DNA from: Dicyema japonicum
Lineage: Eukaryota; Animalia; Dicyemida
Assembly (NCBI GenBank): GCA_011109175.1
Contig: RDEW01000058.1
Location: forward strand, 192,033-256,032
DNA: 64,000 bases
Direction: 5' to 3'
In this document: piece by piece, positions 1 through 54,078 of the stretch
How positions within the stretch are numbered: position 1 is the stretch's first letter
How the letters are laid out: each line of letters opens with the position of its first letter
The notes under the pieces: model-generated
What the model was told of the DNA's origin: nothing
Database searches by the model: none
Seen by the model: the letters and a program-made list of their open reading frames with translations, nothing else
Made by a program: the position numbers and the translations under genes

Positions 1-1047
1 CTACAGGCTCCACTCCTGGTGGTGCCCTTTCGTCAATTCCTTTAAGTTTCAGCTTTGCAACCATACTTCCCCAGAGCCCAAAGACTTTGGTTTCCCGGAA
101 GCAACCCGCTAATGTACAAATACTTATCAGCGGAGTGCTAGTTAGCATCGTTTATAGTTGGAACTACGACGAGATCTAATCGACTTGGATACTCCAACTG
201 TCGTTCTTGATTAATGAAAACATCCTTGGGAAATGCTTTCACTGTAGATCGTCCTGCACCGATCTACGAATTTCACCTCTAGCGGTGCAATACGGATGCC
301 CCGTCTGTCTCTGTTAATCATTACTTTGCTACTGTAACCAATAGAAAAGTCTTATTCTATTATTCCATGCTGAGATATTCAAGCAGAATGCTTGCCCTAA
401 GCACTCTATTTTGTTCAAGGTATTACACACAACTTGCATGTATTACACACAAGCAAACCGAGATCCAACTACGAGCTTTTCAACTGCAGCAACTTTAGTA
501 TACACTATTGGAACTGGAATTGCCGCGGCTGCTGGCACCTTGCCCTTCGATTGCCTTCATTAAAGCTTTTACGATTATTTCATTACAATCTCTGGACAAA
601 TGCCCAGATACGTTATCTATCATCACCATCACTTTATGCCAAAAGTGGATAATTTTCGCACTTGCTGCAATCCATAGATCTGGCAGCCATTTCTCATGCT
701 CCTCTCCGGAATCGAACCCTGATTCCCCGTTACCCGTTGTAACCACGGTAAGCCACTACCTCACTGTCAACAATTGATGGGGCGGACATCTAATTGATAT
801 GTCACCGGATATCCGGTGATCAGCAAAATTATCTAGAGTCAACTAATTCTAATAATTTCGTTTTAATAAGCTTTACGCATGTATTAGCTCTAGATTTACA
901 ACAGTTATTTACCGTCGTTTGACATTATCAAGTAAGTTATGTCCGATTTAATGAGCCGTTCGCGGTTTCGCTCATTAGAGAGCATGAACTTACACTTGCA
1001 TGGCTTAATCTGTAAGATAAGCATATGATCATTCGCAGGATCAGCCT
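1..1047 (-). rRNA. 18S rRNA 5' half, degenerate (probable pseudogene), cut by the window edge
   Basis: The reverse complement shows SSU landmarks: GATCCTGC...CATATGCTT...GATTAAGCCATGCA at the 5' end, GTGCCAGCAGCCGCGG, and GCTGAAACTTAAAGGAATTGACG. Near-invariant sites carry lesions, e.g. GGCACC[AGAC]TTGCCC is deleted at ~540. There is a short duplication GTATTACACACAA at 420-452. Confidence 0.93.
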
Positions 1048-2229
1048 GCTATCTTTTCACAGAAATTACCCACACTTACATGGGAAATACTAGGGAAAAT
1101 GACGCCCGAATGACTCTCGCAATTGCGAAAGAGATGGGATATATGAGCTTCCAAAATTTTGCTGAGTACAGCACACGTGGAAACTTTTTTTAAAGTTACT
1201 CACCTTATATGAGGAGAAAGAGAACTTTAATACTAGACTATTTGTAGAAACCTACAACCAGGTCTGGAAAATCATGGAAGAGCATGATGTTGTTCAACAC
1301 GGGGCTGAACCATTAGCAGAAGAATCAACGAGGACTTACATCAAATCGGTTGTACTGAAGAGAACGCTCGAAAGTATGCTCATTGAACATAAGCATGGGA
1401 TGAAGGTATACGATGAAGAGTACGCCTCTACTACCTCCCAACTTTTAGAACTGGCATGCCATAAGGACAGCCCACTGTACACTAACGGAGATATTTTGAC
1501 TGAATCTGATGTAGAGATGGGGAGTAACAGGGAGGTTATGGCACACTCTTTATCTAAGAGAAGAAGAGGGATTACCAACAATCTGGATCAAAATATGCTT
1601 AATTAGTTAATTTACTCGATATTATTATTATTAAATAATTTTTAATTTTTTGTTAATTTGGGCTTCTAAATTTCTCTGAATCTGATTCCCTATAATTATC
1701 AGAGACACATGGCTATTCTCGCTATATATTTCGACGAGGACTCTATTAATTTGAAGACATATATGCGATTTGCTAAAAATGATCTTTTCTAAATTTTAAA
1801 TCTTGAAAAAACTGACTTTAATATTGAAGAGATAAATGTTAATTATCATAATATATAAAAGCAATCATAGCCTGCAAGCGATCCCAATGTGCTGGAAGAA
1901 CGAACGTGTCATTCTAGGATCTCTTTTTAGTCCTGCAAGTCAGTCGATAAACTTTGCCGTTATGGAGCAAGCATATTGAAGAATACATTTGTTTATATTG
2001 GAAGCAGATAACTGACCCCGTTGAACCGTATTAGATCGCCTATCGAAAGGAAGAAAGATATTAGAGAGAAGAATTGGCGTTTTGAGTGCATTTCCTTAAC
2101 ATAGTTAATTAATCAACTACTCAAAAATCCGAAAAAATAATTTTAATATATTTTAAAATTAAATATTAATTTATTAATTTTTAAAATTATTATATTTTTT
2201 GTCTTTAAAAATATTCATTTTGTAGTGAA

Positions 2230-5100: not shown

Positions 5101-6810
5101 CTATAAGAGAGGTCACATTATGAATGCGCATTTACAACTAAAAAGATTACGAACCCCCTTTACGAAAATGATGGGCAAAATCAACGACAGGATGGTGTAG
5201 AATTCCTAAGCCAACAGAACATCCGAAATCGTTGGAGAGAATATACGGAACGGCTATATTCAGAAACTGTGTGCCCACCCATATATGTTGATGAAGCAAC
5301 GTTGGGTGAGGAGCATAAAATTCTTGAGGAGGAATGCGTGTGGTCTGCACGGCATTTAACGAGGAACAAAGCACCGGGGATTGACAACATCTCAAGCGAA
5401 TTGTTGAAGGCTATACCGGTGACAGCTATCATTAGTCTATGTCAAAAAAATTTGGAATACTGGTATTTGGCCACGCGAGTGGAAAAAATCTATAATTATT
5501 CAAATACCAAAAAAAGGGGATAGCAAGGACTGTTCAAACTATCGTACAATAGCCTTAATTCCCCACGTCAGCAAAATACTTCTAAAGATAATACAACATC
5601 GTCTAATGCCAAATGCCGAATTGATTCTACCGGATGTCCAAGCAGGATTCAGAAAGGGACAAGGCACACGTGACCATATAGCAAATGTCCGGTGAATTAT
5701 GGAGAAAGTCCATGAATTCCAAAAGAGTGTATACATGTGCTTCATTGACTATCGGAAAGCTTTAGATTCCGTTATACATGACAAGCTGTGGTCCGCTTTA
5801 AAAGAAATTGGATTCGATACCCATCTGATATTGCTTATCAAATCTCTTTATAAAGATCAAGAAGCTACTCTTAGAACAGTGTATTGAGATAACTATTGGT
5901 TCAAAATTGGTAAAGGAGTAAAACAAGGATGCTTATTATCTCCTATCCTATTCAATATTTATGGCGAAATGATCATGACTAAATTGGATACTGTATCAAA
6001 AAAGGGATTAAAATTGGATGAAGCAACATCAATAATTTGCGCTATGCTGACGATGCAACCTTACTGGCTGAAACAGAGGATGGCCTCAGGGAGTTGATTC
6101 TAAGATTCAGAGAATAGAGCGTCGTCTTTGGTTTATTGCTAAATATCAAGAAGACCAAAATTATGACTACTGCTAATAATGGAACTAAAAAATTGGGAAT
6201 AAGAAACAAGAGATTTGAGATAATGTTGTTTTTCTGGGATGTCTAATTAATCGGAATAATGACGGAGGTTTGGAAATCAAGAGGCGAATTGCCATGGGAC
6301 GAGACACCTTCCAGAGAATGAATAGAATTTGGAAAAGCAAAGATATTTGCTTAAGGACCGAATGCAGACTGGTTAATGTAATCGTGTTACCGGTTTTCCT
6401 ATTCCGCGCAGAATCATGGATACTGAAAAAGGTGGATAGACGAAAAATTGATGCTTTTGAGCTGTAGTACTGGAGGAGGTTACTAAGAATCCATTGGACT
6501 TTTAAATTAACAAACATTGATGTACTCAAACGGGTGGAAACGGACATTTCGCTAGAAGGAAGAATCGTAAAACACAGAATGGCGTTTTTTGGGCATGTTG
6601 TCCGCTCTGATTCCCTTGAAAGAACCATTATGCTGAGCAATATCACTCGGAAGAGAAGACCTGGCCGACCAAAGACTTGGTAGCTATCACGGTGGAGGAG
6701 GTTACGGGAATTCTTATATCAAGGCTACTCCAAATTGCAACGGATCGGGGAGAGTTGAGGAAACTCGTTCATGCGATCTCCAAGGACACGACTTAATAAA
6801 CAACACAACA
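5100..6810 (+). mobile_element. RTE-clade non-LTR retrotransposon, 5'-truncated and degenerate (RT domain to 3' end)
   Basis: NKAPGIDNISSELLK, NYRTIALIPHVSKILL, QAGFRKGQGTRDHI, FIDYRKALDSV, GVKQGCLLSPILFNIY, LRYADD, EIKRRIAMGR, FFGHVVR. Several stops and frameshifts. Confidence 0.9.
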
Positions 6811-6839: not shown

Positions 6840-7140
6840 CTATGTGGACCATAGTCTCAAGGTCGTCGCAGTTTTTAAATTTCTTTTAATTTTAAAGAGG
6901 TTTTTTTTTTGTAAAACTGTTGGCATTGTTGTATTTGGTCTTCGACGATAGCAGCCTTCTTGACTAACATAGTATATTTCCATAGATTTGTTAGGTGGGG
7001 ATGTTAATTCAATCCTCAGCACGTGTCCGAAAAGCTTCCTTCTGGATTCCAGTAATTCTAAACTGATAGGCATAGTGCTACATCTCTTAAATAAAGCATT
7101 TCAAGATTTCTCGTGGGCCAAGTAGTTCCTGTTTTTTTAC
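6840..7140 (-). mobile_element. 3' fragment of an RTE-like LINE related to the element at 48265-50636
   Basis: RRKLFGHVLR...NKSMEIYY...RRRPNTTMPTVL matches the C-terminus of the longer copy. Confidence 0.65.
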
Positions 7141-7747
7141 AGCTGAACTTTGTGGAACAAGTCTAGTTTTATGATCCTCGGTGTCATAAACTGGATTCCA
7201 GCCAAATTTGTTGGAGAGTATTTTTTAACATGTGAACGCCGCAGCAATGTTTCGACCATTAGCGAATGGGAGTATCGTTATCCCTTCGGGGTGTTGCCAT
7301 CGCAAAGAAAGAAACATTTTTTAAAGTCAAGTTGTTATTTCATTTCGGGGACCAGCCATAAATCAGCTTAAAGACTGATACCCATCGATTCAGCGTCCAC
7401 AGAAGCATTTTCATTAACACAAAATTAAGGTCAAAACGGAGCAAGGTAGAGATTCTCACTGCCTCGTCGTCAGAACGTTTCCAATTTTACCACATTGATA
7501 AACATTCAACCAAGCATTTGTTGATTAATTTATAGTCGTCTAGAAGAAGATCTCCAGTATCATATTAATCTCAAGGAACTCTTTATTTTTCAAAAACATA
7601 TCTTAATGTGATTTCAGATTTATTCGGTCAATTAGATCATTCAGAAAATCTACTTCTAATCGTCCACAGATCCAGAAATAAGAGAAGTGGTAAAGTCAGA
7701 ATAAACCTAAACCTTGCATCCACATTTGGTTGCGAATAATATTAAGA

Positions 7748-9753
7748 ATACTAATAGCATCTATAGTCATCAAATGTATATTTAAAATTACTTTAACGGT
7801 TGACCTAATTTTACGGTCAAGAGAAATATGACCTATTTTTACTTTCAAGTAAAAAGATCATCCGAGGTTGAAAATCTTTTAGTCCTGATAGATCAATATG
7901 TAGCCAAAATCGCACAAAAAAATATTTTGTCATTAATTGATTACCTTATTCGATTTTTTAATATTTCATATAAAATCAATTCGAGAGAGCGAATGTTGGT
8001 CATTCGTTACTTGGAACAATATCATCTATTTAATTCTAAAAAGGCAAAAGATTCTCTTATCATACTCAGGCTAACTACTTCATACTGCTTTGTGTTAATT
8101 TCACGTCTAATCCTCCAAAATTAGACCAATTAAATTACCTTGCAGTACTCTTGTCTGAAAAAAATAATTTCATTTACCCTGCAGTACTCTTGTCTAATAA
8201 AGAATTAGCTATCATCATTCTTCTAAAAAAACCAGGTCATCCGCATATCTTAGTTCCTAGATAAAAGTAGGACAATTTTTAGATCCCAGATTACGAAGAG
8301 CAGCTTCCAGATAGACAACAAGAGGATTGGTTATTGTGAGTCAACTTCTGAAGTGTCAATGTGTGTAGCCTATCTTCAGATTCACTTAAAATTTTATTTT
8401 CGCGCAAATTGACCTGTAATTAAACATTATTCAAAATGTATTAAACTTTTTGACACAATTTTAAGTATTTTGATAAAGTTACTAAACATTAAGGCAAAGT
8501 TATTAGACATTTTAGACAATTTTATTAAATTTTATGGTAAAATTATTAAACAAATCGGAAAACCATGTAAATTGTGTGAATTTAATTAAATTATTTTTTA
8601 ATTTTATTTTTTTAATCCAACACTTTATTTAATAAAATTATAATTAATTATGACGACTGTATTTCATGTAGTAATTTTTATTTCTTGTGGTTATCGTATA
8701 TTCATTATTTCGGTATTTAATCATATAGATGTTCACTTTTCTCGTGTTAAACTTGTCATTCGATATTTTGACATCACAGAATTTATGCAAAAACGAATTA
8801 ATAATAAATAGAGCTCTGTATTAAATATAAATTATTAAGATATTGGATTAATTGTACATATTCGATAACTGGCCTACCTGAATTTTATGTAGCTGCATTA
8901 ATTGTTCAAAATATTGAATTTGAACCTGATGTCATCTTTTCATTATTGGGAATGAAGTTAGATGCTTTGTAATTATTATTATATATTCATAGTCGATGTG
9001 TTATTATGATGAAAGTTTAAAAACTGTAGACAACCAAACATTCCCACCTACCATTAAGGACATGTTACTTATTTTTTTAAATTTATAGAAATTTTAATAA
9101 CTGTATTTCTCTCAAATTCATATCGATCGAATTTGCGGAAAATTTATCAATGCTTTTAGAAATGTAGTTTTTTTGTTATTAATGTAGATCTTTCCTCGAG
9201 GAATAAGTGTAATTCAAATTTTTAAAATTACTTCTAAATTTATTATTTTTAATGAGTATTTTTAATAATAATATAGTGTTATCGTTTGCATCAATTCATT
9301 CGATAATCCAGAGGCGTATGATATTATATTTAGTATAGATATGAAGCAATAACTAATAGAGGATTATATCTCAAAGATAATAAAATGTATATGTTAGAAA
9401 ATAATATATTTAGAGGAAACAGCAGGCCGACAAGTGAATATTTCAGTCTAATAATCTGCAGTGCCATTAAAAACAAGTATAATGTACTTGGAATTTGAGG
9501 AGTTCAATTAAACATTTAACTAACTTAATGGTTCATTTTTCTGGGATATAAAATTCGTGTTAATTAATTCAAATTTATTATGATTTAATTATTATCCTGG
9601 TTGGACAACTGAATTACACAGCTGTACTATTGTCTCTAAAGAATAATTTTACTTAAAAAACGATTACAGAAGTAATCGACTTTGATAGGTGATAAAGAAC
9701 GGACGGTTTTTCTCAGATTTATGCAGAACGGCGTATGCATTATTCTAATTAAT
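7748..9753 (+). repeat. ~2 kb segmental duplication, copy 1 (direct repeat of 34561-36553)
   Basis: Both copies start ATACTAATAGCAT.TATAGTCATCAAAT and stay colinear to GCATTAT..CAATTAAT/GCATTATTCTAATTAAT. By eye they are roughly 90% identical over the first ~900 bp, then patchy. Confidence 0.93.
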
Positions 9754-24289: not shown

Positions 24290-25200
24290 TAGAATCATAT
24301 TTAGTGCCAAACTCCGCCGACTACTATGTCTTCACCGTTCCCTAGTAATCTGTTTACTGGTCTCAAATCTCCACTAAGGACTTAAGGAAGCGTTATACGT
24401 AGACGCCCTATGACTTTTTCCACGTTTCAAAGAATTTGTTTGCTGGCGTATCTCATTTCATTCTTAGAATTTAACCAAACAGTTTCCACCTCATGATCAG
24501 AGTGTTCAGGGGTCCAGAGGAGCATCTTTTGTTACACGCATTGGCCAGTTTAATCCCAAGAGAGATAAAAGTTGCTTCTTATGAAAGGAGTTGAGCCTTT
24601 GTCTTTTGGTTTTCGAAATTATCCATGTTCCAGAGTTATACGTAAGGATCGGTTTCACGAAATCCTCATACAATCTGACTCGGAGTGATGGGCAGACTGG
24701 ACGCCTTTGGATCCATCCTTTCAAAATGTTCTTACTACAGTTTTCGGTACTGCGTGGTTCTAATTGAGACCATTTAGCTAGGCGGTCTGCTGCTACCTCC
24801 AGGAGATGTCGAAGTGCATCTTTATTACTTGAGACAAAGTCAACATCAACGGGGTAAACAATTTCCATAATATTGTCGCTGTAATACTTCCGGAGATCTC
24901 GTAGACCATATTCAATGTACGCAGCTAACAATACCAGAAGAGGGAGTCTCCTAGAGGTGTGCCTGCTGTTGTCACGATTTTCCAATAAGCACTCGCAACA
25001 CCGTGTTTGATAAGAGTATCCGTATTAAGGTGACCGAGTCCGGATCCAGGAAGGTTTCCAGGACTTCAATGAGTTTTCCTCGACGGACAGTGTCCAAAGC
25101 TTTGGTGAGATTAATTCCTGCGGGAAGCGGTATGGCTGAGGCAATGAATTGGGATTGCAGTTGTCCACGGAAACGCTTACTCCGTAATGTCAGCAGCCGC
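24290..25200 (-). mobile_element. Degenerate RTE-like LINE (RT to 3' end)
   Basis: NLTKALDTVRR, YPVDVDFVS (degenerate YADD) and LRVRLYEDFVKPILTYNSGTW...LNSFHKKQL, paralogous to 48694-49377. Confidence 0.75.
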
Positions 25201-31233: not shown

Positions 31234-31550
31234 TTTTTTTTTTTTTTTTTTTTTTTTAAATCAAGAATTTATTTATAACAAAAAAATCGTTCTAAAGTCC
31301 AGCGGATATGATCGAGTGGCTGTTACCTCTGACTACTGCCAGGGAATATCTTTGGAAAAAGCCACTCGGTTTCCCGACGCTCCTCGAGGCTTTGGTCAAT
31401 AGACACCAAGTGCTCTAAGGAAAGAGACCGTCTTGGGGCCAAAGACTCCGCTCGTCTCGACGACCACTGGCTGTATATGAAACGGTTTATGAGGCTGCTG
31501 TATTTCTTTTTTTTTTTTTGAAAACTCGAAGATAAAGAAATACAGCAGCC
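31234..31550 (-). mobile_element. 5'-truncated CRE-like retrotransposon insertion with poly(A) tail and TSD
   Basis: The minus strand gives QPVVVETSGVFGPKTVSFLRALG...RETEWLF-RYSLAVVRGNSHSI* (RLE C-terminus). T24 run at 31234-31257. Duplicated target TCATTAACTAAA(TT) at 31222 and 31551. Confidence 0.85.
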
Positions 31551-34500
31551 TCATTAACTAAATTACATTGAAATCTGAGATGTGACTTATATTTAATTTA
31601 AATTATTTAAAAAAAAATATTATTAATATTATTAATTTCTTATGAGCTTTTTTTTCTGTTGATCATAGTGGAATATATCCTTCGTACTGAGTTATGAATT
31701 TATTTATTTATTAGCTATGAATGAACTCAATAGAGAGGATAATGATAACTCGAGCCCAGTGGTGTTTGGCATACTGGATATTGGAAATTGATACAATAGT
31801 CATGAATTCGGTTTCTCAATGGAGAACAGGACTATTATTAATAATGCCTTTGTTTGAATGAATGGTCACTATTAATAAGTACTTTGTTATTTTAAGGTAA
31901 ATTCACGAATCAACGGATTTATGGAAATACTTTAATTCGTAAGAACCGAGGGTAATTATGATCATCCAGTATTATACATGCTTATTTGGGTTTTAGAGAG
32001 GAACATTTGGTCAAAAATAGGAAGGAGCTTGAACTTGTCAAAATCAAGTGATTAGTCAGTTTGGTTTTACTTTGGTCTTGTGAGGTGGGAGTGCAAATTG
32101 TTTTTATACAATACGGTTCTCATTATTCAGAAATGCTCTCGGGAGGATAGTAGTATCAGTTGAAGGATTTGATCTTTACAGAATCCATAATTGAGTAAAC
32201 CCAAGTATCTTCATTGTACTGGATTTGTCAATTGTTAGTTAGTTAGTTAATTAACCCAGATCTCACTAACTTGTGGAGACCAACGGCTATAAAATCTGAC
32301 ATCGCAGATGACGGTCGCTATCATATATTGGTCAACTTGGTATGGTAGACGAACAGCGTTAAAGAGATCAAAAGGTTATTTGCTGTCAACTCGGAGAGGT
32401 TGCAAAAGGAACAAAGAAAATTTTTTACATTATCCAGTTTGCCAACGTCGGTCGATAGGGATGGTCCCCACATCGTTTACGAGTCAAGTTTACCCGGAGA
32501 TCCTTCGGAAGAGAGGATTCTGAATAGTCAAGTAGAGGAAAAGTCGATGTAGTATTTAATCGTCGAGTCTTTAACAAATTCAACGTGAAAGTAACTCTGT
32601 AAAACTCAGGAGTAACTATTCGAAAGCGCAAATCTCATGACGTCGGGGCCTCAGATGGGCGGAAAAGAAGTCTTCTAAGACGAATTATTTTTTCTAAGAA
32701 ATTTTTATCTTACAAACGTAATAAATATTAAATAAAAACAATATAATAAATAAATAATTAATTAATATCTTAAAAGTATGATGTGAGAATCCTCTGAAAC
32801 AATGAAGACTATAAAAAGACGAGGATGAAGAACCAATCAAACGTATAGAAAACTAAGAAAAAATTCTCTTAAATGGTAATTCCGTTGATCTCACTATAGC
32901 TTCAGAAAACTTCACAACCTCCACGAAAGCGACAAAAACAGTTTACTCTGTCTTGCGGAGTATTCGGAATTATAAGCGAGCAAAACGAGACCATGCAGCA
33001 AACTTTGAGGTAAAAAACCAGACTCCGTCCATCGACCTTTTTCCGTGGTTCCTCTGAGGAGATTGACACAGGAAGAACTCCTAGCAGAAGCCAAAATAAC
33101 AGAAGAACGTCCAATATTACGGAATATCCGATATTTTGGTGTATTGGTCTATATATCTTAGAGTGACATTACCGTCGGTAGATCACTAGAAAAAAGTCGG
33201 GAAAACTTTAAAAAATCACACCTAAATTGTGAATTTAAGAATATAGATATCGAAGACCCAATATAAAAAAAAACTAGAAAGGGAGTTTTTGTTCTTCAAA
33301 GCAAAATATGCTAGAAAACCATGACCTGAAGCAAACTAACCAATCTTTGTAGCAACATAAATCGTCTTTAAAACAAATAACCAAAAATGATCAAATCCAC
33401 GTGTTGGGAATCATTATCATCAACATAATCACTTTAATGATCGAGAATTCAACACATTTTTAGCAAAACAACTGGACGAGTCAATCTCCTTCAAATAAGA
33501 CGAAAAGTGTTGTTTTCCGTTTTCACGACCTGGTAAGATTTTGCAAAAAAATTGGAAGAGCTTCAAAACTCGAACGATGAACTGAAGACTGTTCTAAATG
33601 ACTAGAATTTCCAAATGATGTACTGAAACAACAGAGACAGTTTTCGAGCCATTTTGGACAAATTGGAGGATACAAATTCGTGCAAAAACTAGGAATATCT
33701 AGAACTGATAGCTACAAAGTCTCCGATTGAAGTTATTTGTAGTCTCTTTGATTATTAGAGGGGGGAATGTCTGGTCGGATGATCTAGGTCTTTTTGCCAA
33801 GTCGGAATCATATTTACGGGAAATTGCGATGTTGGTGGAAGAAAGATGACCAAGAACGAAACTAGCAATAATTTTGATGTTCTGAAAGAATGTAATTCAA
33901 TGCTGGTGGGTGAGCTTAATACACGTTGTTCTGATGTGGAGGTTGAGTCCCTAGCATTATCAGATGATACTACCCCATTGATGGAATTGGCAGGTATTTA
34001 TGGTTATGAGTATTCGTAGTTTATGTTTTGAAGGAGAAATTGATGCACGAAAAGAATCTTCTTAAGAAATTCAAATGATCGGTTTGTTTGCTTGTCAAGT
34101 TGATGTTGGAGATTGGAAGGCGATTATCCGAATGGCTGGAAAAGAAGTACCTAAGATCGGGTTAAAAAGAAATTTGGTGTTTGCGGTTGTATTGGTAGTT
34201 ATTGGATGAGTGTGACTGTAAGTACAAATTAGTTGAGTCTGGATATACTGCATGTATTTGTCATTTGAGCGATAAGTATTTGCGGGGACAGCCTCGGCTC
34301 CAATGTTTTTGGTAGCGCATATTTTGAAGATTAATGGAATGAGTAATAATTTGAAAAGTTTAGGTTTTTTGCTTTAACTTGTTGATTTTATTATGTTTTG
34401 TATGAATAGTGTAATATTTGTTACTTTTCTGTTGTTTTCTTACAGGTGGTTGGGTTACACAGAATTTTAATAAAAATGAGGCACAATAAACCGGACATTG

Positions 34501-34560
34501 TGATACACGATATAGAGCCTGGTCAAGTCCTCATCATAGAAGTTGGCAATAATAGTAAGG

Positions 34561-36553
34561 ATACTAATAGCATATATAGTCATCAAATATAGTTAAAATT
34601 ACTTTAACGGTTGACCTAATTTTACTGTCTTAGAGAAATATGACCTATTTTACTTTTAAATAGAAAAGAACATCGGATGTTTAAAATCTTTGGTCCTGAT
34701 AGATCAATCTGTAGCAAAAATCGCACAGAAAAATAATTTTGTCATCAAACGATCACTTTATTCGATTTTTTAATATTTCACATAAAACCAATTCGAGAGT
34801 GCGAATGATGATAATTCGTTACTTAGAACAATATCATCTATTTGAATCTTAAAGAGGCAAAAGATTCTCCCTTCATACTCAGACTAACTACTTCATACTG
34901 CTTTGTGTTAACTTCACGTCTAATCCTCCAAAATTAGACCAATTAAATTACATTGCAGTACTCTTGTCTGAAAAAATAATTTCAATTACCCTGCAGTACT
35001 CTTGTCTGAAAAAGAATTAGATATCATCATACTTCAAAACCAAAATCCAGGTCATCCGCATTTCTTAATTCCTAGATAAAAGTAGGATAATTTTTAGCTC
35101 TCAGATTACGAAAAGCAGCTTCCAGATAACAACAAAAGGATTGGTTATTGTGAGTCACTTTCTGAAGTGTCAATGTGCATAGCCTCTCTTCAGATTCACT
35201 TAAAATTTGATTTTCGCGCAAATTGACCTGTAATTGAACATTATCAAAAGGTATTAAACTTTTGACACAATTTCTAGACATTTTGATAAAGCTATTAAAC
35301 ATTGTGGCAAAGTTATTAGACATTTTCGACAAATTTATTAAATTTTATGGTAAAATTATTAAACAAATCGGAAAACCATGTTAATTGTGTAAATTTAATT
35401 AAATTATTTTTTAATTTTATTTATTTAATCCAACACTTTATTTAATAAAATTAAAATTAATTATGACGACTGTAAATCATGTAATAATTTTAATTTCTTG
35501 TGGTTACTAGTATATTCATCATTTTGGTATTTAATCCTATAGATGTTCAATTTCATCATCTTATACCTTCATTTGGCATTTTGACACAGAAAAATTGTCA
35601 AGAAATAAATCAGGTGCAATTTCTGTATTATATATTAATTATTAAGATATTTGATTAATTGTACATTTTCTGGACTACAAATTGATTCTAAAGTATAGAT
35701 TTACGAATTCAATACATCACATTTGAACATGGTTTCAATTTTTCTATTATACGATCGAAAGTGACGAATTTGTATTAAATATTACTTATTATAGTTACTG
35801 TTGGGAAGAAAGTTTAAAATATGTAATCAAAATACTTTTCCATCTACTATTGATAGCTTGTTATATATATTATTAAATTAATAGGTATTTACAACGATGC
35901 AATTCCCTCTTATACATCGCAATTGATTTTGCAGAAGATTTATCAGTACTTTACAATATGTAAATTTTTTTAATTAATGTAGTTTCTTTCCACAGAGAAT
36001 AGAAGTTATTCAAGAATTTAGAATTAGTTCCATTTGGGTTACATTAAATAAGTATTTTTAATAATAATGTAGAGTGATTGTGTGCAGGGATTCATTCGGT
36101 GATGCAGAGGCGTATAATATTATATTTATCATAGGTATAAAGCTATACGTGATAATCATAATTTTCCAATATAATAACATGTATATGTTCGAAAGTAATA
36201 TATTTAGACGAATACAGCAAGCAGACAAGTAAAACATGTAATTAATAATGTTATTTCAGACTGCAGTGCCATTGCGAACAAGTACAATGTAATGGGCTTT
36301 TGCGGAGTTACTAACATTTTACTAACTTAATCGGTTCTTTTATCGAGAATAAAAATTGGTGTTAATTAATTCAAATTTATTATGATTTAAATAATTTCCT
36401 GGTTGGCCAACTGAATCACACATCTCTACTCTTGACTCGGAAAGAATAATTTTAATTAAAAAAACGATAAGGAAATGAATCGATTATGATTGGTTTTAAG
36501 AACGGATAGGTTTCCTTAGATTTATGAATGACGTGAGCATTATCCCAATTAAT
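34561..36553 (+). repeat. ~2 kb segmental duplication, copy 2, containing the paralogous LRR-type gene (from ~35463), truncated by a gypsy fragment
   Basis: Colinear with 7748-9753. Exon 35885-35959 (75 nt, phase 2-2) encodes L|YLQRCNSLLYIAIDFAEDLSVLYNI. Confidence 0.9.
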
Positions 36554-36569
36554 TTATTTAGTTTTGATC

Positions 36570-38060
36570 CCTGTCGACATAATTGTCGCTAAGTTCTTTC
36601 TCAAGATATTCAAGGAGATCAATTATATGAACACAATTGCCTTTAAGAGAGTCAGCGTCCAAATTTCTTGAGAATATTCCTCGTCGGAGTAGTTAAATGA
36701 ATTGGCACACAACTTTTTTTGTCATCAGGTGTCAAACTCCACGGATCAACACCTGAATTTTTTGATCTGATCCTGAATATCGAAGGTGTTTTCTTGGTCA
36801 TGTATTTGCCCCCGTCTGGATTATTTTATATAATATTTTCTGCCCCCGACTTCGGACACTTTATCTTCCAATAGTCTTTCCAAAAATAGGGATTTTTACA
36901 TAAATCTTAGCACCCTCAGCCTTTCATATACGTCCGTTTATTATTTCCATTATTAGACATGAAAACCCTATAGTAACTCTAATCTAATTGAGATATGTTG
37001 AACCTCAAGAAAACTAAAGTAATGCTAGTTCATTATGCATTTTCCTTAAGGATCAAGCATTCACTAGCAATATAATCTTGTTTCAACATTTTGGTGACCT
37101 TGCTTCTTCAAATCCAAGCTTACTATCTCCATTAAATCCATCTGTGTATTCGCGGACAGATAGTTAAGATGTGACATAATCTTTGATATTTCCGTATATA
37201 CCTTCTCTGATAGATTGGGTGGGACTTCATTCGATTTCGACAAATTTTTAGTGCCGTCTTTGACGTAACTGTCTTTGCTGTCCACGTTCTCCCAATATCG
37301 CTTATTATCACCTGTCCATCGTTTTACCCTACTCTCCTATGATCAAGACTTTTAGGCGAATGGACATCCATCATATCTATCACAATGTGAGGACGAGCCA
37401 CAATTTATGCTATTAATTGTGTTCCCAGGAATCTTTCACACGCAGACAGATCGTGTTCTCCTCAAGTGAGACATCTTGTATTCTTACAGAAGCAGGATAT
37501 ATGCCCATAGCGTTGGCAGTTGAATCATTTATGTGGCTTCTTCCGTACTATTCGCATGTAATAGTACGTGAGAAATGTTGAAACAATTTCCGACAAGCGA
37601 AGTAGCCTCAGCCTATGATCCAACTAGAACCCTTAGAAAAGGGAGTCTCCATCTGCCTTGTAGAGATGACATAAGCTCGTGGTAGATGAGGCTAATTCCT
37701 TTACGAATTCATAAAGGTCGTTATCATATACTCATAAAGGCAGGTTGTTCACACAATTTCGAAAGATCTAGTCGGATTTAACTAAAGCAATGGTTTCCAA
37801 GAACATAAAGAGAAGTAGCATCATCATGTTCATATAAATTCCTTTGTCCCCTCCTTTCTGAATTCGAGGCGGAAGATCCCGGAGCCTTTGTGACTCAATC
37901 TGATAAATCTCGTCAAGTCGACGAGTACAGCACTTTAGAAATTTTGATAGCTCTCATATTCGATGTGACAGAAATCTGTGTCTAAAGAAGACGAACAAAC
38001 TGACGGATCTGTCACTTAAAAGAAGAAATCGATTGATAAATAAAAAGGAGACTCAGGAGA
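36570..38060 (-). mobile_element. Ty3/gypsy-like LTR retrotransposon gag-protease-RT-start remnant
   Basis: Degenerate zinc knuckle K*FNCQRYGHISCFC at ~37480-37535. A protease-like segment at ~37390-37415. IFSRNLDADSLKGNCVHIIDL, typical of the pre-RT region, at ~36615-36680. No LTRs found. Confidence 0.6.
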
Positions 38061-38464: not shown

Positions 38465-39122
38465 CTTCCTTCAGTACGTATGCAAAACGCGAAAGCGTGG
38501 CCTATCGATCCTTTTGCTTTTAAAAGCTTTAAGCTAAAGGTGACAGAAAAGTTACCACAGGGATAATTGGCTTGTGCGCCCAAGCGTACATAGCGACGGC
38601 GCTTTTTGATCCTTCGATGTTGGCTCTTCCTATCATTGCGAAGCATAAATCGCAAAGTGTAGGATTGTTCACCCACTAACAGGGAACGTGAGCTGAGTTT
38701 AGACCATCGTGAGATAGGTTAGTTTTACCCTACTGATTCGGTGTCGTTGCAACAGTAATTCTGCAAATTACGTGAGGAACTGCAGAGTCAGACATTTGGT
38801 TCATGCACTTGACTGAAAAGTCAGTGGTGCGAAGCTATCGTCTAAAGATAATAACTGAACGCCTCTAAGTTAGAATCTTGACTGGAAGCAACGATATTGT
38901 GCAGTGCTCTAATATAGCAAGAATATGCTTTTATGCTGCTGTTACCTTGGTGTCGAAAGGTGTCCTAAAAGTAGGCATTATCACCCAGGTGAATTGCATT
39001 GAGACTGAGTACTGTGCTAAATCACATGTAGACGACATTTATTGGCATGAGAACTGTACGTATGAAAGCTGCTTTGGTGGCGATCTACTGAGGTCCATCT
39101 CTTTGCCAAAGATTTGTCCGCT
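38465..39122 (+). rRNA. 28S rRNA 3'-terminal fragment (probable pseudogene)
   Basis: CAGAAAAGTTACCACAGGGATAA, GATCCTTCGATGT.GGCTCTTCCTATCATTG, GGATTGTTCACCCACTAA and GGTTAGTTTTACCCTACTG. The sarcin-ricin loop is mutated (AATTACGTGAGGAAC vs AGTACGAGAGGAAC). It ends with ...AAGATTTGT. Confidence 0.93.
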
Positions 39123-39214: not shown

Positions 39215-39472
39215 GGGCTTTTGGACTTGTAATTTTTTCGCAAATAGTCAAATGGGTGTTTTGTATTATCAGGCCATATTCGCAGCCATAAGTTTCGTCA
39301 CATGGGTCTATTAAATGCACGATAAATACGCTGAGGGTATATGGTGATAAGTGATTGAGGCCTTTGGACTTGGTATATTTTTCGCAAAGTCAAATGGGTG
39401 TTTTGTATTATCAGGCCAAACCCGCAGCCATAAGTTTTGAAAACATGGGTCTATTAAATGCACCAAAAATAC
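39215..39472 (+). repeat. Two-copy ~140-bp tandem repeat 3' of the 28S fragment (3'ETS/IGS subrepeat)
   Basis: AGTCAAATGGGTGTTTTGTATTATCAGGCCA...CGCAGCCATAAGTTT...ACATGGGTCTATTAAATGCAC occurs at ~39246 and ~39388. Confidence 0.85.
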
Positions 39473-40177
39473 CCCGACGGTAGATGCTGGAAAGGTAAAA
39501 AAGAGACCTTCCATGGGCATAAAATGCATCGAGGTTTTTCTAGCCAGATATTAGCTAATGCATTGGTATTATAAAATCGGGCCTCGTAATAGGCCCGAAT
39601 AAGTAATATCTAATGAATAGGTGAATAACCAGGTATTTGCTAGATAATAGAAAATCGGGCCACCTAATAGACACTAAAAAAGTAGTGCGTGGGCAATATG
39701 GGCAGACTTATAAAGTTATTATTTATAGATTTCAAAAAAGCCCAGTGGACAAGTAAAGGATTTTAACAAGGAAGCCCAGTAACTGTCCTGTTGAGTATCC
39801 ATTGATTCCTTACAGTAAGTGGACAGCCTGCCGTCCAATGAGTGGCCATGCAAAGATCTTTCTGCATTTGATTTTTCAAGTCGCCGGAGATGCAAAGACT
39901 AGTAACATGGTAACATTAGTTGGACATGAAGGCAGGTTAACACCGGGTGTAAAGGGTTAATGGGGAAAGGCAGGACAGGGGCCAGGGAAACGGGGGGAAA
40001 AGGGATCGGATTAGATTTACGGGAAATTATCGCCACAGTTGTCCAAAACCTTATTTTTCAATAGGCTAGGTAGACAGCTATTTGAGATAAGCTTCATAGG
40101 GTTCGAGTCCCAGAGATTGTTTTATAATTTTCGTTTTAACACTTTTATTTATTTTTATTTATTTTTTTTATTTTAAG

Positions 40178-41152
40178 CACGTGTCTACAGCTCATAAAAA
40201 TTTGGTCACGTGGTCCGGGCACGTGCCTTATCTCTAACTAGAATTAGATATCTCCATCTGAGTTAGAAATTCAGTTAAAAAGCCAAATAAAAGCTTTAAA
40301 TTAACTATTTAATTATACAATTTAATTACTTATTTATTTTTTTTTTTTAACACGTGTCTACCACAAAGAAAAAAACTGATCACGTGGTCAAGAAAAGTTT
40401 TAAATATTAAATTTGAACCTAAAAATCTGTTTTAGGGCTTAATTATAACTTTCTATTTAATTAATATATTTTAGGCACGTGTCTAAGCTAGGAAACTTAA
40501 AAATTTAGACACTCAAAAAATTAGCCACGTGGTCGGGCCCAGGTGGTCAAGACATGTGGGTACTCCAAATAAATCGGGGCTCATTTGCTATTGAAATATT
40601 TAAACCAAATTAACAAATAAGCTTATTAAATCAATTTAAAAAATAGCTTTTTAATTTCTAAAACCAAATTATTAAAAGTGTTATTTTGGGCTTAAAACAA
40701 GCATTTTTTCTGGTCCCCGAATAGATACAGATTCTCCGGGATTTGTCCCCACTTGCCCTAACTTTTTTCGGGTACGCACTTGCATATTTGTTGCTCTTTA
40801 AAATTGGCAAACTTGTCTTGACCTTAGGTCCCCCAGGGATCACAAATGAAGACTTTGAGTTTCGGGAAATTTCGATTAATATTACTCCTGTCAAGTGGCG
40901 TGACCATTAATGCTAATTTCAAAAACTTTCAACTTTAATCATTTCTAGGCATTAATACAAGAACCCAGAGATCCCTGAGATGAAGACAATGGGAGACAGC
41001 CCACGTGGGTAAAAAATCAAAACTTAATTTTTATAAACTGCTTATTTAAACACTCTCCTTCTTACAAATGCAATAATAAAATATTTATTTCAAGTCTCCT
41101 AAGCACTTTAAGTCAAAATAAAAGTGTCCCACAAAAAGCTAGAAAGCACGTG
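40178..41152. promoter_or_regulatory. Cluster of nine CACGTG E-box palindromes in the putative rDNA spacer
   Basis: CACGTG starts at 40178, 40207, 40220, 40351, 40381, 40476, 40526, 41002 and 41147 in very AT-rich DNA. Function is inferred only. Confidence 0.55.
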
Positions 41153-44200: not shown

Positions 44201-46889
44201 TGTTTCTCGTAGCACAACAAAATCGTGTATCTGTTTCAGACGACTCCGGTCATGGGGTGGAAGAGATGGATGATAGCATTCGGAGGGTTGTTATGATAAT
44301 CTTTCTTTTGTTTTGTGGTTTGCATAGAAAGTGACAGGGGTGGTCTAAGCTTGGGAGAGGAACTGCATAGCTCTCATTTCCAAATGGTTTTCAATTGGAA
44401 GGATCTTTGATTCCAATTTAGATGATCAATAAGGGGTTGATTTGAGACATTCAGTAATGTTTGGACTTTTGTAGTTCGTCGATGCCACTCAACCAACGAA
44501 CTTGAAGCGATTGGAGGTAAATAAATAATAAAGTAACACAGGAAATATTCGTCTTGAACGTCTGCATCCATTTTCACAACGTAATCTTCCACAGGTGTCC
44601 TGGAAAGACAACCACATGCACGTCATCTGAATGTAGAAAATTTTTCCATGGCGCATTGCAGTGTGTTTCTTTACCCATCCGTAGAATATGTCCAAAAGAC
44701 GCCAACGGACTTCAAGTACGTTCAAACTTATTGGTCCACAATCAGTCTGTATAATTTATTGTTTGAGATTTTCTTTGTACAATAATATCCAAGGAATTTT
44801 CTTAGTTGGCCACTGTGAAATCCATATCTTTCTTTGACGTTTCCCAAGTACCTGCGTTGTACAAGAAAACAGTACATACGGCAATAAATATATTTGAATT
44901 AAAAAAAATAATTATTGTAGTTTTTCAAATTATCAAGAAATTTTTTTTCAGTGGAAAACAATTTATTAACAAAAAAAGATTTAAATAATTAATCCTTTGC
45001 ATATGATATCTGGGGCCATTAATCTCTTGGACAAATGTCTTGAAGATCAGGCTAGCCGAAAAAAGCTCCAAAATCACGGAACGCTAGATTTCTGGAGAGT
45101 TCCAGCCACCAATACCTCATGAAGCCGTTATACGAATTAATCACGGAACGCACCGTGGTAACTGCGAAGATCCAGTCATTCAGCCGATATGTGCTTGTGT
45201 GGGGTAGGGGGAGGAGCATCGGGCCAAGATGAAATCCCTGCTAGTGCGTGCTGGGATCACGTGATTAGTTAGTTTGTGTAACCGTGGTCTCTGATATTAT
45301 TATTATTAATCCTTTGCAGATAGGATTGCGAATACGTTTCCACGTAATACGGAAATCTCGATTAGTTGTCTTAGCAAGAACGCTTCAAGGGGTTCTTTCT
45401 TTCGACTCGCTAGTATCCCTCATATATTGTTTTAGATTCTGCCGAGTCCGAATCAGCATTTTTCGAAACTGAGCATTTCATCAAGAATTCTGACTTTCAT
45501 CAGTTCTTGGAGAGACTGATCATCGACTATTGCAACTCCGGAAATAACAAAACCGACTATATTGATGGCATGACACTGTGCTCTTTTCCATAGCTCCATT
45601 CATCCGAAGAACACCTTTAATAAAACGTATTCATGCCTTGTTGTTCCGTAATATGAATTTGGATGCAGTTTAGTTGAGCTTTTGCTGTGTAAATACGAGA
45701 AATATCTTGCACTAAGTAACCATGTTATAGCGTTTTCCTATCGATAACGACAATAGGCAATCAACAACAACATTTGGGCAATCAAATACTTCGTTTATTG
45801 TAAATTCCTCTTAAATATACATTTTCTGTTGAATTGGAAAAATGGGAGATTGTAACTCAAATGTCTAACGCTTTATCACTGATATACTCTTTTATCTCAG
45901 TCTCTTTAAACACGTCAAGACTAGATGAGTAGTGAAAGAAGGGTGTATTCAAACGCTCATGGAGGTAACTCTGATATGAGAGTAACTTAATCATGAGAGC
46001 ATGACTATAAATGCATGTCTTTAGCATCTTAATAAAACTGTCCAACAAGAACAAGTCCATTCGGAACCAGGGAAAGGGGATAGAATATCCAGTCCTCGCA
46101 ACTATGGGAATATGCGATCGGTCACTTTTTTCTCAATCAAAAGGTGGAAATAATCACATGTCAATCTTTGTCAGATCCCATGAATATGTTCGACCACCAC
46201 AAATTAACCTTTAGTCAGGTATACCTTTTAATGAATAACCTATCCATTTACTACTGAAGCATAGTCAACTCCCTTCTAGATCATGAACATAATGATAATT
46301 TTAGTGAGTTTATAAAAAATAATTTATTTCGCCGAATTAAATTAAATTTATTGAACCAAAAAAAACACCGTTTTAGCCAAAATGAAAAAATTCAGGTGAT
46401 CCTGGCCATTCCTCAGCAGTCTTGGCATGCTTGGACTATAAGGAAGTGCAGTCCAGGAAGAACTCTTCTGAAGGTTGTGATGGTTCAAGCTATTTTAATT
46501 CCAATTCTAGAATCCTATTAATTAATTCGCGAATAAATTAATTGTTGTTCGCAAATTAAATTAAAAATAAAAAATTTCATAAATTTTTCGTTGATTAATT
46601 ATTAAAATTTAACTATAATTAACTATAAATTAAAATTTAACTATAAATTTTAATAATTAATCAACAAAATTAATTAATTAATTTAACGTTTAGGTTGCAT
46701 GGCGCTATGTGATGCTATCCACCTTACTGATGAGACCCCCAATGCCTGGCTAGCATCAAGAGGATCCAATTATTCTTCCTGGGGGACAATGTCGTTACCT
46801 GGAGACAAGTTCTAGAATGCTGGAACGAGTCAGGATCAAGGACTTTGTTAGTTTGGTTACCCTTGGTCTTTGGAATTATTTTAATTTAA

Positions 46890-48264: not shown

Positions 48265-50636
48265 TTATCAATAGCACTTTCGAAGAACCAAAAATGTAAT
48301 TTATTTAAGGTTCCGCTTGTGCCGTATTTTTCTTCAGGTTATTCTTTCTCCCACAATTCTCTTAACTAACTTCCTCCATGCTCCACGGTTACTGGCATTA
48401 TTCTGAGCGTATCCAGATCATCTCCTGTTTTCAGCTTTCGTCTAAATTGGTCAGGTCCTTGTGTAGAACCTCTGGCAAAGTTATGCGAGGTCTTCCACGG
48501 AACGAGGTATTCACTTCTTGGTAGAAATAATCCTCCATTGCTATTTTAGCAGGCGTCATCTGGCTCATCGAAGGATGTGACTGAACAGACGCCATCTTGA
48601 TTCAAGGATATCCAGACTCAATGGTCTTGTATTACATACTTTGTATAGATTCTTGTTTGTAATTTTTCTTGGCCAGTTGATGCCAAGCAACAGTCAGAGT
48701 TGTTTGCGATGGAAGGCATCTAGTTTGTCCATTACCGCTTGTGAGACTTCCCAGGTTGCAGCGTTGTACATTAGGACCGGTTTCACGAAGGCATTGTATA
48801 GTCTTACACGTAATTGTGTGCTAATTTGTCTACGATTATTCCAGACTACTCCCATTTTTCTGAAGGCCGCGACGGCCAACATCTTCCTGTTAGTGATATC
48901 CTCAGCGTCTCCGAGCAACGACCCCGATTTTTTACAGTATCTCTATTTTTCATCAGTTCGGGTTTAGTTCACGGCGTATGGTAGTTGTCTCCGTCTTTTC
49001 CGTATTGATTTTGATGAACCATTTTTCTAGCGCATCTGGCATCCTTGTCCGTATATAGTTTAATGTTTTCTCGTCGCTGGATATATGGTCGAACTCATCT
49101 GCATAAATCACTTTAGTTTGAGGTAGATCGCCAATTAATAGTCTGAAGTCTCTGAGTGCCGCCTCCAGATATGTCACAAAAAGTACCGGTGACAAGGAAT
49201 CTCCCTGCGGTACCCGAATGTTGTCTCGAATGGGACAGACTCCAAATTTCCAAAACGTACACTTAGCTGCGTTGTTCCAAGTAATAGACGAATCATTCTG
49301 ACACTGTCCTCGTCAACCAGCTTCTCCAAGATATCCAAAAGTCTATCTCTGTGTATATAGTCAAAGGCTTTGGACATGTCCGTGCCAAGGATGCCAGTAG
49401 CCCCCTTGTACTTTTGATGTGTTGCACACAGCCATCAATGTTCCCAGAAAATATGAGCTGTAGATATCCCTGACCTGAATCCGCTTTGCCCGTGAGAGAG
49501 AAAGTTCTCGATGTCAGTCCAATCCTGTTCAGCACTATAAGTGATAGTGTCTTGCGTAAAGTCGTCAATAGTACGATGGGTCTTAAATTTGTTAAGGTGC
49601 CTTTAGCTTTGCCCGGTTTTTGTAGTGCAATTAGTGTGCCATTACCCACATCCAGTGGTGAGTTGTATTTGAATGTTTTGTTGTATATCTCAGTTAATAG
49701 CTCAGAGATCTCATTCGGTGCATATTTGAGAAGTTCTGCATTTATGTTGTCAGGGCCAGCAGCTCTATTGTTGTTCAGTTTGTCCAGGGCTTTTTTTGTT
49801 TCCAGAATCGTTATCGGAATATTTAGTTCTCGTGCTTCACATCGAATTGTTTGATGTTTTCCGCGTGGTTGATTGAAGGCCTGCTGATAATGACTGGATA
49901 TGGCCGATAGAATTTCTTTTTTGTTTAACATAGTCTTTCCAAACTGATAATGTACTGTGATTTTTGATGACTGCGTGTCTCTATGTAGTAGGTGAACAGC
50001 CTTGAACATATGCACTCCGTTTTTTAGCCTTTCTACTTCTTTAGCCATTCCAACAAGTTTATTTTCCTTTATTTCCTTCGTTCTTTTCTTTATTTTATAC
50101 AAGGTTTGCTTCCTCATGACTCTTAGAGTGTGTTCCTTTGCCTGGTCCTGACAGGTTTCGACCTGTAAACGTAGGTTCCTCTGTTTGGAAACCCCAAAAT
50201 ATTATTTGAAAAGGAAACGTGCCAATCTGTGATCACTATCTACTAGTGTCCCACTGTAGCTCCGAGAATCTGTTAGCAGTGCTTTGTAGGCTTGTTTGCA
50301 GATAATGTAATCTATTTGGTTATATATAGGCTTGATAGTCCCAGATTTGTCCTTTTGGTAGCAGCTCCATGTCGTCTTATGTCTTGCTGGGTGCCTGAAA
50401 GCAGTATTACATAGAAATAGTTTGATTGTATCGCAAAATTCGATAAGCGACTCTCTCCTGACTGGTTCCTGATCCCTCTTCCATGGATTTCCATGAATTC
50501 TTCGTAACTACTCCCACGTCCTGCCTTTGCGTTCCAATCTCCGGCAATGTATGTCATGAACGATGTTTCCAAAGTTGCATATAGTTGCGAAGGGAGGAAT
50601 AGAAGTCGTCTAGTTCGTCTTTTTCTATTTTCAATG
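48265..50636 (-). mobile_element. RTE-like LINE (APE + RT), frameshifted, nested in the Tigger element
   Basis: IAGDWNAKAG (APE), NNRAAGPDNINAELLK, NLRPIVLL, DMSKAFD, SPVLFVTYLE, IYADE and LYNAFVKPVLMYNAATW. Confidence 0.9.
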
Positions 50637-53915: not shown

Positions 53916-54078
53916 TGTCACGAGCCTAGGGTGTTACCGAGCCTAGGTGGTTACACTAATGGACTTAGAATGTTCTTGCCGTCTTATAAAATTGGTCGCC
54001 ATAATTTTTTAGTTTATGGGTTATTCTAAGTCCATAAGTGTAACCACCTAGGCTCGGTAACACCCTAGACTCGTGACA
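53916..54078. mobile_element. 163-bp MITE with 56-bp TIRs, TGT...ACA termini and 5-bp TSD
   Basis: TGTCACGAGCCTAGGGTGTTACCGAGCCTAGGTGGTTACACTAATGGACTTAGAAT and its reverse complement (2 mismatches), flanked by TAATA on both sides. Confidence 0.88.

What the first reader, a model, noticed from the sequence alone, without database searches (positions are those of the whole stretch)
8650..9753. Hypervariable LRR gene family: exons diverge faster than introns between two paralogues
Seen: the paralogues at 8650-9753 and 35463-36553 share exon/intron layout. Their micro-introns are close: 9256-9276 differs at 1/21 sites, 9387-9413 at 2/27, 9316-9338 at 3/23 and 9064-9088 at 5/25. The upstream 900 bp is about 90% identical. 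In contrast, the 75-nt LRR exon differs at 27/75 nt and only 11/24 residues match (NFNNCISLKFISIEFAENLSMLLE vs YLQRCNSLLYIAIDFAEDLSVLYN). The structural L/C/I/F positions are kept and the x positions change. Established: one-repeat-per-exon phase-2 architecture is typical of extracellular LRR proteins, and exons outpacing introns marks diversifying selection in immune and toxin genes. Inference: this is a rapidly diversifying recognition or antigen family, plausibly at a host-parasite interface, evolving by birth and death. Caveats: both copies look broken, synonymous sites also differ, and AT-rich constrained micro-introns inflate intron identity.
Basis: partly seen in the sequence, partly recalled or inferred. 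Interest (0 to 1): 0.78.

Follow-up and report, generated by a model that had tools for sequence, protein, structure and literature searches.

The report
Hidden variable surface-protein family in parasite
These are two broken copies of a many-copy gene family in a tiny-intron animal, likely a parasite; it likely encodes small variable secreted or surface proteins, and its exons differ far more than its introns and flanks without showing more protein-changing than silent change.

Summary
The reading frame starts at 8729/35543, not 8650. It gives a ~205-residue protein with a signal-peptide-like start, six shared cysteines, one clear LRR-like repeat and a hydrophobic tail. Both copies are broken. 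Thousands of contigs from public runs cover the unit, with up to 52 carrying one variant letter. Some contigs keep the frame where copy A is broken, and a second sample holds contigs spliced at the predicted introns. So this is a real multi-copy family, likely transcribed, with no homologue found.

The selection claim fails as stated. dN/dS is 0.47 (CI 0.28-0.76), and silent sites diverged most (dS about 1), against 9% in the upstream flank and 15% in introns. Best reading: old coding variants kept distinct while recombination evens out the flanks, plus 92% AT introns that look conserved. The LRR fold is untested. Micro-introns are general in this genome, which fits a dicyemid or myxobolid parasite.

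The parts
7729..9753 (+). Copy A of the repeated unit (part shared with copy B)
   Evidence: self-BLAST; alignment
7750..8649 (+). Upstream flank, 9% diverged from copy B, with small indels; likely promoter region plus sequence of unknown origin
8650..8728 (+). Likely untranslated first exon or short upstream ORF (8650-8695) and 33-nt intron 1 (8696-8728)
   Evidence: out of frame with the main ORF in both copies
8729..8817 (+). Copy A coding exon 2: ATG, hydrophobic signal-peptide-like start, first cysteine
8840..8968 (+). Copy A exon 3 (129 nt): cysteine-bearing N-terminal cap-like segment plus a degenerate repeat; both boundaries match spliced contigs
   Evidence: X5 records 25-27; loose ends at 8964, 8968, 9000
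8993..9063 (+). Copy A exon 4, LRR-like; frameshifted near its 5' end in this copy
   Evidence: table 4
9089..9163 (+). Copy A exon 5 (75 nt, phase 2), the clearest LRR-like repeat
9188..9255 (+). Copy A exon 6, degenerate repeat; frameshifted near its 5' end in this copy
   Evidence: table 4
9256..9276 (+). 21-nt intron 6; absent from one X5 contig (21-gap record)
   Evidence: record 30
9277..9386 (+). Copy A exon 7 (9277-9315), intron 7 (9316-9338) and exon 8 (9339-9386)
9414..9528 (+). Copy A exon 9 and last exon, fused by damage to the last intron; two in-frame stops; hydrophobic tail; shared final stop
   Evidence: X2 record 16 matches the damaged form 108/108
34542..36553 (+). Copy B of the unit; cut at its 5' end, with repeated cover continuing past 36553
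35543..36330 (+). Copy B coding region: exons 35543-35624, 35647-35771, 35795-35859, 35885-35959, 35983-36051, 36073-36111, 36135-36180, 36208-36237, 36260-36330; five frameshifts

Best explanation
The two loci are broken copies of a multi-copy gene family in a tiny-intron animal; the family likely encodes small, cysteine-braced, possibly LRR-like secreted or surface-anchored proteins, whose old coding variants are likely kept distinct while recombination between copies likely evens out the flanking DNA. Shown: gene layout, decay of both copies, many related contigs, in-frame stretches where copy A is broken, spliced contigs, dN/dS below 1, and silent divergence far above flank divergence. Inferred: export from the cell, LRR fold, membrane anchor, a role at the host interface, and gene conversion or unequal crossing-over as the homogenising force. 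The introns look conserved partly because they are 92% AT and partly through constraint or short conversion tracts; that split is not resolved.
For: Family: 3962, 1253, 1021 and 1153 contigs laid on copy B's region in runs X1-X4 (one sample), with up to 52/26/26/29 contigs sharing one variant letter at 35062. In-frame members: contigs carry an extra base at both of A's frameshift sites (9 contigs at 8999 and 5 at 9190 in X1), a sense codon at A's first stop (20/10/12 contigs in X1/X2/X4), and the full 22-nt last intron (5 contigs each in X1, X4). Splicing: in run X5, 3 loose ends at 8968, 2 at 9000 and 1 at 8964 join exon 3 to exon 4, and one record lacks 21 nt over intron 6. Age of the coding cassette: dS 0.62 (NG) to 1.0 (ML); four-fold sites differ at 14/26. 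Younger flank: upstream 83/894; a change-point in non-coding divergence falls at 8641-8694, just before the ATG (87/938 before, 70/380 after, permutation p=0.003). On A/T-only sites, upstream 7750-8400 differs at 14/426, introns 2-8 at 12/124 (p=0.007) and four-fold sites at 5/14. Possible mosaic: one X5 contig equals A for 113/113 nt of exon 3 and then departs from it. Precedent: introns more alike than exons in primate L/M opsins through conversion (PMC3213168 abstract; PMC3924837 passages).
Against: Only two full sequences, both decayed, so conversion tracts could not be tested. Introns of 21-27 nt are very short to be homogenised apart from their exons, and four-fold A/T sites still exceed introns (5/14 vs 12/124, p=0.016, five sites only). 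The flank could be conserved by selection instead. Contig counts mix paralogues, alleles of pooled individuals and errors, so they give no copy number. X5's kind is not on record (tool guess 'DNA?') and it also holds unspliced contigs (records 28, 29, 31, 32), so intron-less DNA copies are not excluded. Nothing here shows protein, location or host contact. The listed coding variants are 24 replacement to 6 silent, about the neutral ratio, though that list is a selected 40 of 215 rows.
Confidence: 0.55

Rival explanations
1. Old duplication with plain constraint: the copies split long ago (dS about 1), and the flank and micro-introns stayed alike because regulation and splicing constrain them; no conversion is needed.
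For: omega below 1. Introns are 92% AT, and their G/C-bearing sites differ as often as silent sites (9/12 vs 7/8). Some intron letters are nearly fixed across family contigs (e.g. 9069, 9177).
Against: It needs five- to ten-fold constraint over 900 bp that carries small indels. A heuristic model of the rootletin gene in the same window has short introns of only 68% AT with little consensus, and PMC13644364 reports splice motifs reduced to GTa and AG, so splicing alone does not demand this conservation.
Confidence: 0.25
2. One reading: strong diversifying selection on exposed residues of an LRR recognition or antigen family explains the exon excess.
For: Only 46% amino-acid identity (78/168). 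Hydrophobic and cysteine positions are kept. Listed family variants are mostly replacements, 24 of 30. omega of 0.5-0.7 is high for an old pair.
Against: Silent divergence exceeds replacement divergence, and omega=1 is rejected downward (p=0.006). Selection on amino acids does not by itself raise silent rates. The excess is even over exons 2-9, not limited to one face or repeat.
Confidence: 0.12
3. Exon-limited exchange or mutation through an RNA intermediate: spliced transcripts are reverse-transcribed by the genome's LINE enzymes and rewrite exons only, leaving introns and flanks alike.
For: It would explain a silent excess confined to exons. LINE-type reverse transcriptase remnants lie close to copy A. 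Intron-less contigs exist in X5, whose kind is not on record.
Against: All eight introns are kept in both copies, whereas cDNA recombination usually removes introns (recalled). No intron-skipping joint is listed for X1-X4 (tables are cut). No direct test was possible.
Confidence: 0.06
4. The unit is retrotransposon cargo or an assembly artefact rather than a host gene family.
For: Copies sit among LINE and rDNA debris. An RT-like motif was seen by eye on the minus strand near 8230-8340 (translation). Copy B shares only 0.56 of its sampled words with the best run.
Against: The RT likeness of the shared flank did not beat shuffles and found no Pfam or database hit. Splicing at predicted sites, omega below 1 and an exact 108-nt read match to A's damaged intron argue for real genes and real lesions.
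Confidence: 0.05

Closest known systems
Trypanosoma cruzi MASP surface family (PMC2691823, abstract read)
   Same: Large parasite multigene family; conserved ends and conserved untranslated regions around a variable middle; possibly GPI-anchored.
   Different: Unrelated organism and sequence. Here the gene has nine micro-introns, six fixed cysteines and an LRR-like core. Surface location is only predicted.
Primate L/M opsin paralogues (PMC3213168 abstract; PMC3924837 passages)
   Same: Non-coding DNA more alike than exons, silent sites included; explained by gene conversion with selection against homogenising exons.
   Different: Two or a few tandem genes with long introns. Here a dispersed family with 21-33 nt introns, in which intron-only tracts would have to be tiny. 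Tracts are not demonstrated here.
Tetrahymena 90-bp-exon LRR genes (PMC6564038, passages read)
   Same: Lineage-specific LRR families with repeat-sized exons, phase-2 introns and nearby LINE-like elements.
   Different: Those vary repeat number by exon shuffling. Here exon number is the same in both copies, exons are 66-75 nt, there are three or four repeats at most, and there is a signal-peptide-like start.
Snake venom gene families (PMC6062510, passages read)
   Same: Duplicated secreted proteins whose coding regions diverge fast.
   Different: Those show KA/KS above 1; here omega is below 1. The classic intron-versus-exon paper (PMC46847) was not held, so that comparison is recalled only.
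Lamprey VLRB and Leishmania PSA-2/GP46 (recalled, no call)
   Same: Signal peptide, cysteine caps, few LRRs, stalk and GPI tail; variable recognition or surface proteins.
   Different: No sequence link was found; LRR fold and GPI anchor are untested here; no sign of somatic cassette assembly.

Membership tests
Extracellular LRR proteins | LxxLxLxxN/CxL hallmark with 24-26 residue period | tested here: inconclusive
   One 26-residue match in each copy across exons 4-5 (shuffle p=0.012 and 0.007). The pattern is recalled and was tuned after seeing the sequence, and the copies are not independent. The 11-residue motif gave p=0.09 (A) and 0.007 (B).
Extracellular LRR proteins | Match to curated LRR profiles or solved LRR proteins | tested here: not met
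   No Pfam family for 7 of 7 single exons, 6 of 6 read-through frames or 2 further pieces; no LRR hit in PDB. Power is low because only 22-42 residue pieces are in frame.
Extracellular LRR proteins | Repeat-sized exons bounded by phase-2 introns | tested here: met
   Exons 4-6 are 72/66, 75 and 69 nt once breaks are allowed for, all phase 2. The intron 3 and intron 6 junctions are seen in X5.
Extracellular LRR proteins | Curved solenoid fold | not testable with these tools
   No spliced full-length protein was available to fold; no homologue was returned.
Positively selected immune/toxin-type families | dN/dS above 1 over the mature region | tested here: not met
   omega 0.66 (NG), 0.47 (ML, 160 codons) and 0.32 (96 best-aligned codons).
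Positively selected immune/toxin-type families | A class of sites with omega above 1 | not testable with these tools
   Needs many intact members; only two full, decayed copies are in hand.
Parasite variant surface families (MASP-like) | Many divergent copies with pseudogenes | tested here: met
   exact copy number unknown.
Parasite variant surface families (MASP-like) | Signal peptide and GPI or membrane anchor | tested here: inconclusive
   Hydrophobic N-terminus (11-residue mean 1.9-2.0); no 19-residue window above 1.5; moderately hydrophobic tail. No dedicated predictor was available.
Parasite variant surface families (MASP-like) | Surface display and variant-restricted expression | not testable with these tools
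   Only contigs were available; splicing seen in one run of unrecorded kind.
Conversion-homogenised paralogues (opsin-like) | Non-coding divergence below synonymous divergence | tested here: met
   Upstream 0.09 and introns 0.15 vs four-fold 14/26 (p=3e-8 and 3e-5).
Conversion-homogenised paralogues (opsin-like) | Discordant trees or detected conversion tracts | not testable with these tools
   No whole genome is held; two sequences give only a change-point.
Retrotransposon-borne gene | Reverse-transcriptase homology or element ends inside the shared unit | tested here: not met
   The only significant RT match (7014-7265) lies outside the shared unit.

The most novel reading that the evidence does not exclude
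A roughly 30-cell animal parasite carries an undescribed repertoire of tens or more LRR-like surface proteins that it diversifies by exon-limited exchange (micro-tract or cDNA-templated conversion). Its 21-27 nt introns would act as near-invariant recombination anchors: antigenic-variation-like machinery used against an invertebrate host.
Probability: 0.12. Interest if true: 0.85.

Novelty: new member of a known kind. Interest (0 to 1): 0.5.

Why it matters
Tiny-intron animal parasites are known for gene loss. In the one dicyemid genome paper checked, none of the 9 of 10 multi-copy cluster rows seen is an LRR family, and a search for 'dicyemid' with 'leucine-rich repeat' found no paper. A large, spliced, lineage-specific family of variable exported proteins would be a first candidate for host-contact or immune-evasion molecules in such an animal; it may have been missed because it looks like a repeat and has micro-introns. 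The pair is also a clean case of silent sites (dS about 1) outrunning 25-nt introns and flanks, which makes the minimum size of conversion tracts and the constraint on micro-introns testable. It is not evidence of positive selection as it stands.

Tried and rejected
No whole genome is held, so members could not be counted. One search listed no RNA holder; that is no evidence either way. Homologue searches were blank: 20 candidates, none at E<=1; 107-342 aa only; HMMER over 1.84 billion representatives, 0 hits; Atlas, exon 3, no usable hit. These libraries may simply lack this organism. The Atlas could not be run on exon 5, so it gives nothing on the LRR question. No third copy was found in the window. 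A ciliate-type code (stops read as Gln) was considered and dropped: the standard code gives open exons once the start is moved to 8729. A shorter protein ending in exon 9 was considered. It was set aside because the last exon is open to the same stop in both copies and family contigs hold a sense codon at A's first stop there; A's second stop was not among the 40 rows shown. The idea that the conserved upstream flank is a dead retrotransposon was not supported. Summed contig depth was not used as a copy number. A text search for a short 18S motif found no paper, so dicyemid versus myxobolid is not settled by a call; dicyemid is favoured by the rootletin gene and the recalled absence of cilia in myxozoans. 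Earlier findings of the scan: nothing. Literature searches were seen as listings only, except for the papers named.

Full report
Observation. The two loci align over 7729-9753 and 34542-36553 at 81% identity. Eight AT-rich GT-AG introns of 21-33 nt are shared. Their internal sites differ at 24/165, against 171/504 in coding sequence (p=1e-6).

Organism. No genome is held. The window has an 18S rRNA piece (1-1048, minus), 28S fragments (38562-39115), LINE and MULE remnants, and a rootletin gene (Pfam E=1e-8). A heuristic model of that gene has 35 introns, 30 of them 35 nt or shorter, with median 23 nt and 68% AT (unvalidated, one frameshift). So micro-introns are not special to this family. PMC13644364 (parts 1-2 of 3 read) finds such introns among animals only in myxobolid myxozoans and a dicyemid, both parasites. 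I favour a dicyemid because of rootletin (the lack of cilia in myxozoans is recalled), but no call settles it.

Gene model. The ATG at 8650 opens a short exon out of frame with the rest. The frame that links all later exons starts at 8729/35543, directly after intron 1. Read with X at breaks, the product is about 201-211 residues: a hydrophobic N-terminus, six cysteines shared by both copies, several N-glycosylation sequons, no 19-residue window above hydropathy 1.5, and a moderately hydrophobic tail ending at the same stop. Exons 4-6 are 66-75 nt and phase 2. One 26-residue stretch across exons 4-5 fits an extracellular-LRR pattern in both copies (p about 0.01 each; pattern recalled and chosen after inspection). 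Its neighbours are degenerate. Pfam, PDB, the Atlas and two large protein searches gave nothing, and the fold could not be predicted. 'LRR-like' is therefore a lead, not a membership.

Both copies are broken. A has two frameshifts, two in-frame stops and a damaged last intron; B has five frameshifts. A's damaged intron is matched 108/108 by a contig, so at least that lesion is real. The single-base frameshifts could include assembly errors, but the rootletin model needed only one in a far longer coding region.

Family and expression. Five runs were listed; X1-X4 are one sample. On copy B's region 3962, 1253, 1021 and 1153 contigs were laid, spread from under 90% to over 99% alike, with up to 52 contigs sharing one variant letter. 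On 8600-9600, 1657, 560 and 568 contigs were laid from X1, X2 and X4, and 25 from X5. Contigs keep the frame at both of A's frameshift sites, have a sense codon at A's first stop, and carry the full 22-nt last intron. Listed indel rows also fall at three of B's five breaks. These are local stretches; no contig spans a whole gene. X5, a different sample, has contigs that join exon 3 to exon 4 exactly (3, 2 and 1 loose ends), one lacking 21 nt over intron 6, and one starting at the exon 3 acceptor. It also has unspliced contigs; 8 of its 25 records were listed. Its kind is not on record, so transcription is likely rather than shown. Counts mix paralogues, alleles and errors; 'tens of variants in a pooled sample' is as far as they go.

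Rates. Nei-Gojobori on 168 codons: pS 0.42, pN 0.32, omega 0.66 (0.42-0.99). Codon ML on 160 codons: dN 0.48, dS 1.02, omega 0.47 (0.28-0.76), p=0.006 against 1; on the 96 best-aligned codons omega is 0.32. Divergence is even across exons 2-9 and lower in the last exon (13/70). So the exons are not fast because of replacement changes; they are old or fast at silent sites too. Against a simple purifying picture, the coding variants listed are 24 replacement to 6 silent, but that list is selected.

What needs explaining is the low non-coding divergence. On sites that are A or T in both copies, upstream 7750-8400 differs at 14/426, introns 2-8 at 12/124, the 3' flank at 14/145 and four-fold sites at 5/14. 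On sites with any G or C the figures are 46/220, 9/12, 31/76 and 7/8. Introns inside the coding cassette are thus about three times more diverged than the upstream flank, and part of their apparent conservation is composition. A change-point in non-coding divergence falls at 8641-8694, just before the ATG (p=0.003-0.008). This fits a young 5' flank joined to older coding cassettes.

Mechanism. Most likely (0.55): a birth-and-death family of small exported proteins in which recombination or conversion homogenises flanks while selection keeps coding variants distinct. This is the pattern described for L/M opsins (PMC3213168 abstract; PMC3924837 passages). AT-richness and some constraint keep the introns alike. 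Rivals: plain constraint on flank and introns (0.25); diversifying selection as the main cause (0.12); exon-limited exchange through cDNA (0.06); element cargo or artefact (0.05). An RT-like motif seen by eye in the shared flank failed every test. A role at the host interface is inferred only from the predicted export, the variability and the parasitic lifestyle of the candidate groups.

Comparison and novelty. It works like parasite variant surface families such as T. cruzi MASP (abstract) and resembles Tetrahymena exon-per-repeat LRR genes in layout (passages), without demonstrated membership of either. Unlike venom families (PMC6062510 passages) it has omega below 1. Searches for dicyemid with LRR and for Dicyema with gene family and repetitive found no paper. 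Passages of two dicyemid genome papers and 9 of 10 rows of one multi-copy table name no such family. The library lacks most subscription papers, so absence from print is not established. Verdict: a real, apparently undescribed family and a real rate anomaly of a known kind; the headline claim of diversifying selection is not supported by these two copies. Interest 0.5.

Noticed in passing
window 1-1048 (-): 5' part of an 18S rRNA gene with small deletions in conserved motifs, likely a decayed copy.
   Followed up: partly
window 38562-39115 (+), 39216-39489, 40147-40389: 3' fragments of 28S rRNA followed by short direct repeats (143-nt spacing) that may be rDNA spacer.
   Followed up: no
window 56391-63284 (+): Rootletin-like gene with about 30 micro-introns; the heuristic model needs one frameshift near 62127, possibly an assembly error.
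   Followed up: partly
window 5107-6650 (+), 7014-7265 (-), 24506-25024 (-), 48568-50500 (-): Several decayed LINE-type reverse-transcriptase remnants, mutually similar.
   Followed up: partly
window 51810-52652 (+): MULE transposase domain, Pfam E=5.5e-9.
   Followed up: no
window 34410-34548 (+): Copy B's 5' edge abuts a short frame resembling the restriction-like endonuclease of R2-type retrotransposons (motif recalled; no Pfam hit). Ten contigs continue here with letters resembling copy A's 7706-7735 by eye, so B is cut.
   Followed up: partly
window 36553-36900: Repeated contig cover continues past the A/B homology, so the full unit is longer than the shared 2 kb, or another repeat follows.
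   Followed up: no
window 9256-9276: Intron 6 has a 3-nt longer form in many family contigs (17 in X1).
   Followed up: no
window 8127-8215 and 9606-9655: A 39-nt tandem duplication in the upstream flank resembles a stretch in the 3' flank (76% over 50 nt), in both copies.
   Followed up: no
window 53911-54083, 46568-46685, 31485-31558: Imperfect palindromes of 75-175 nt, possibly MITE-like.
   Followed up: no
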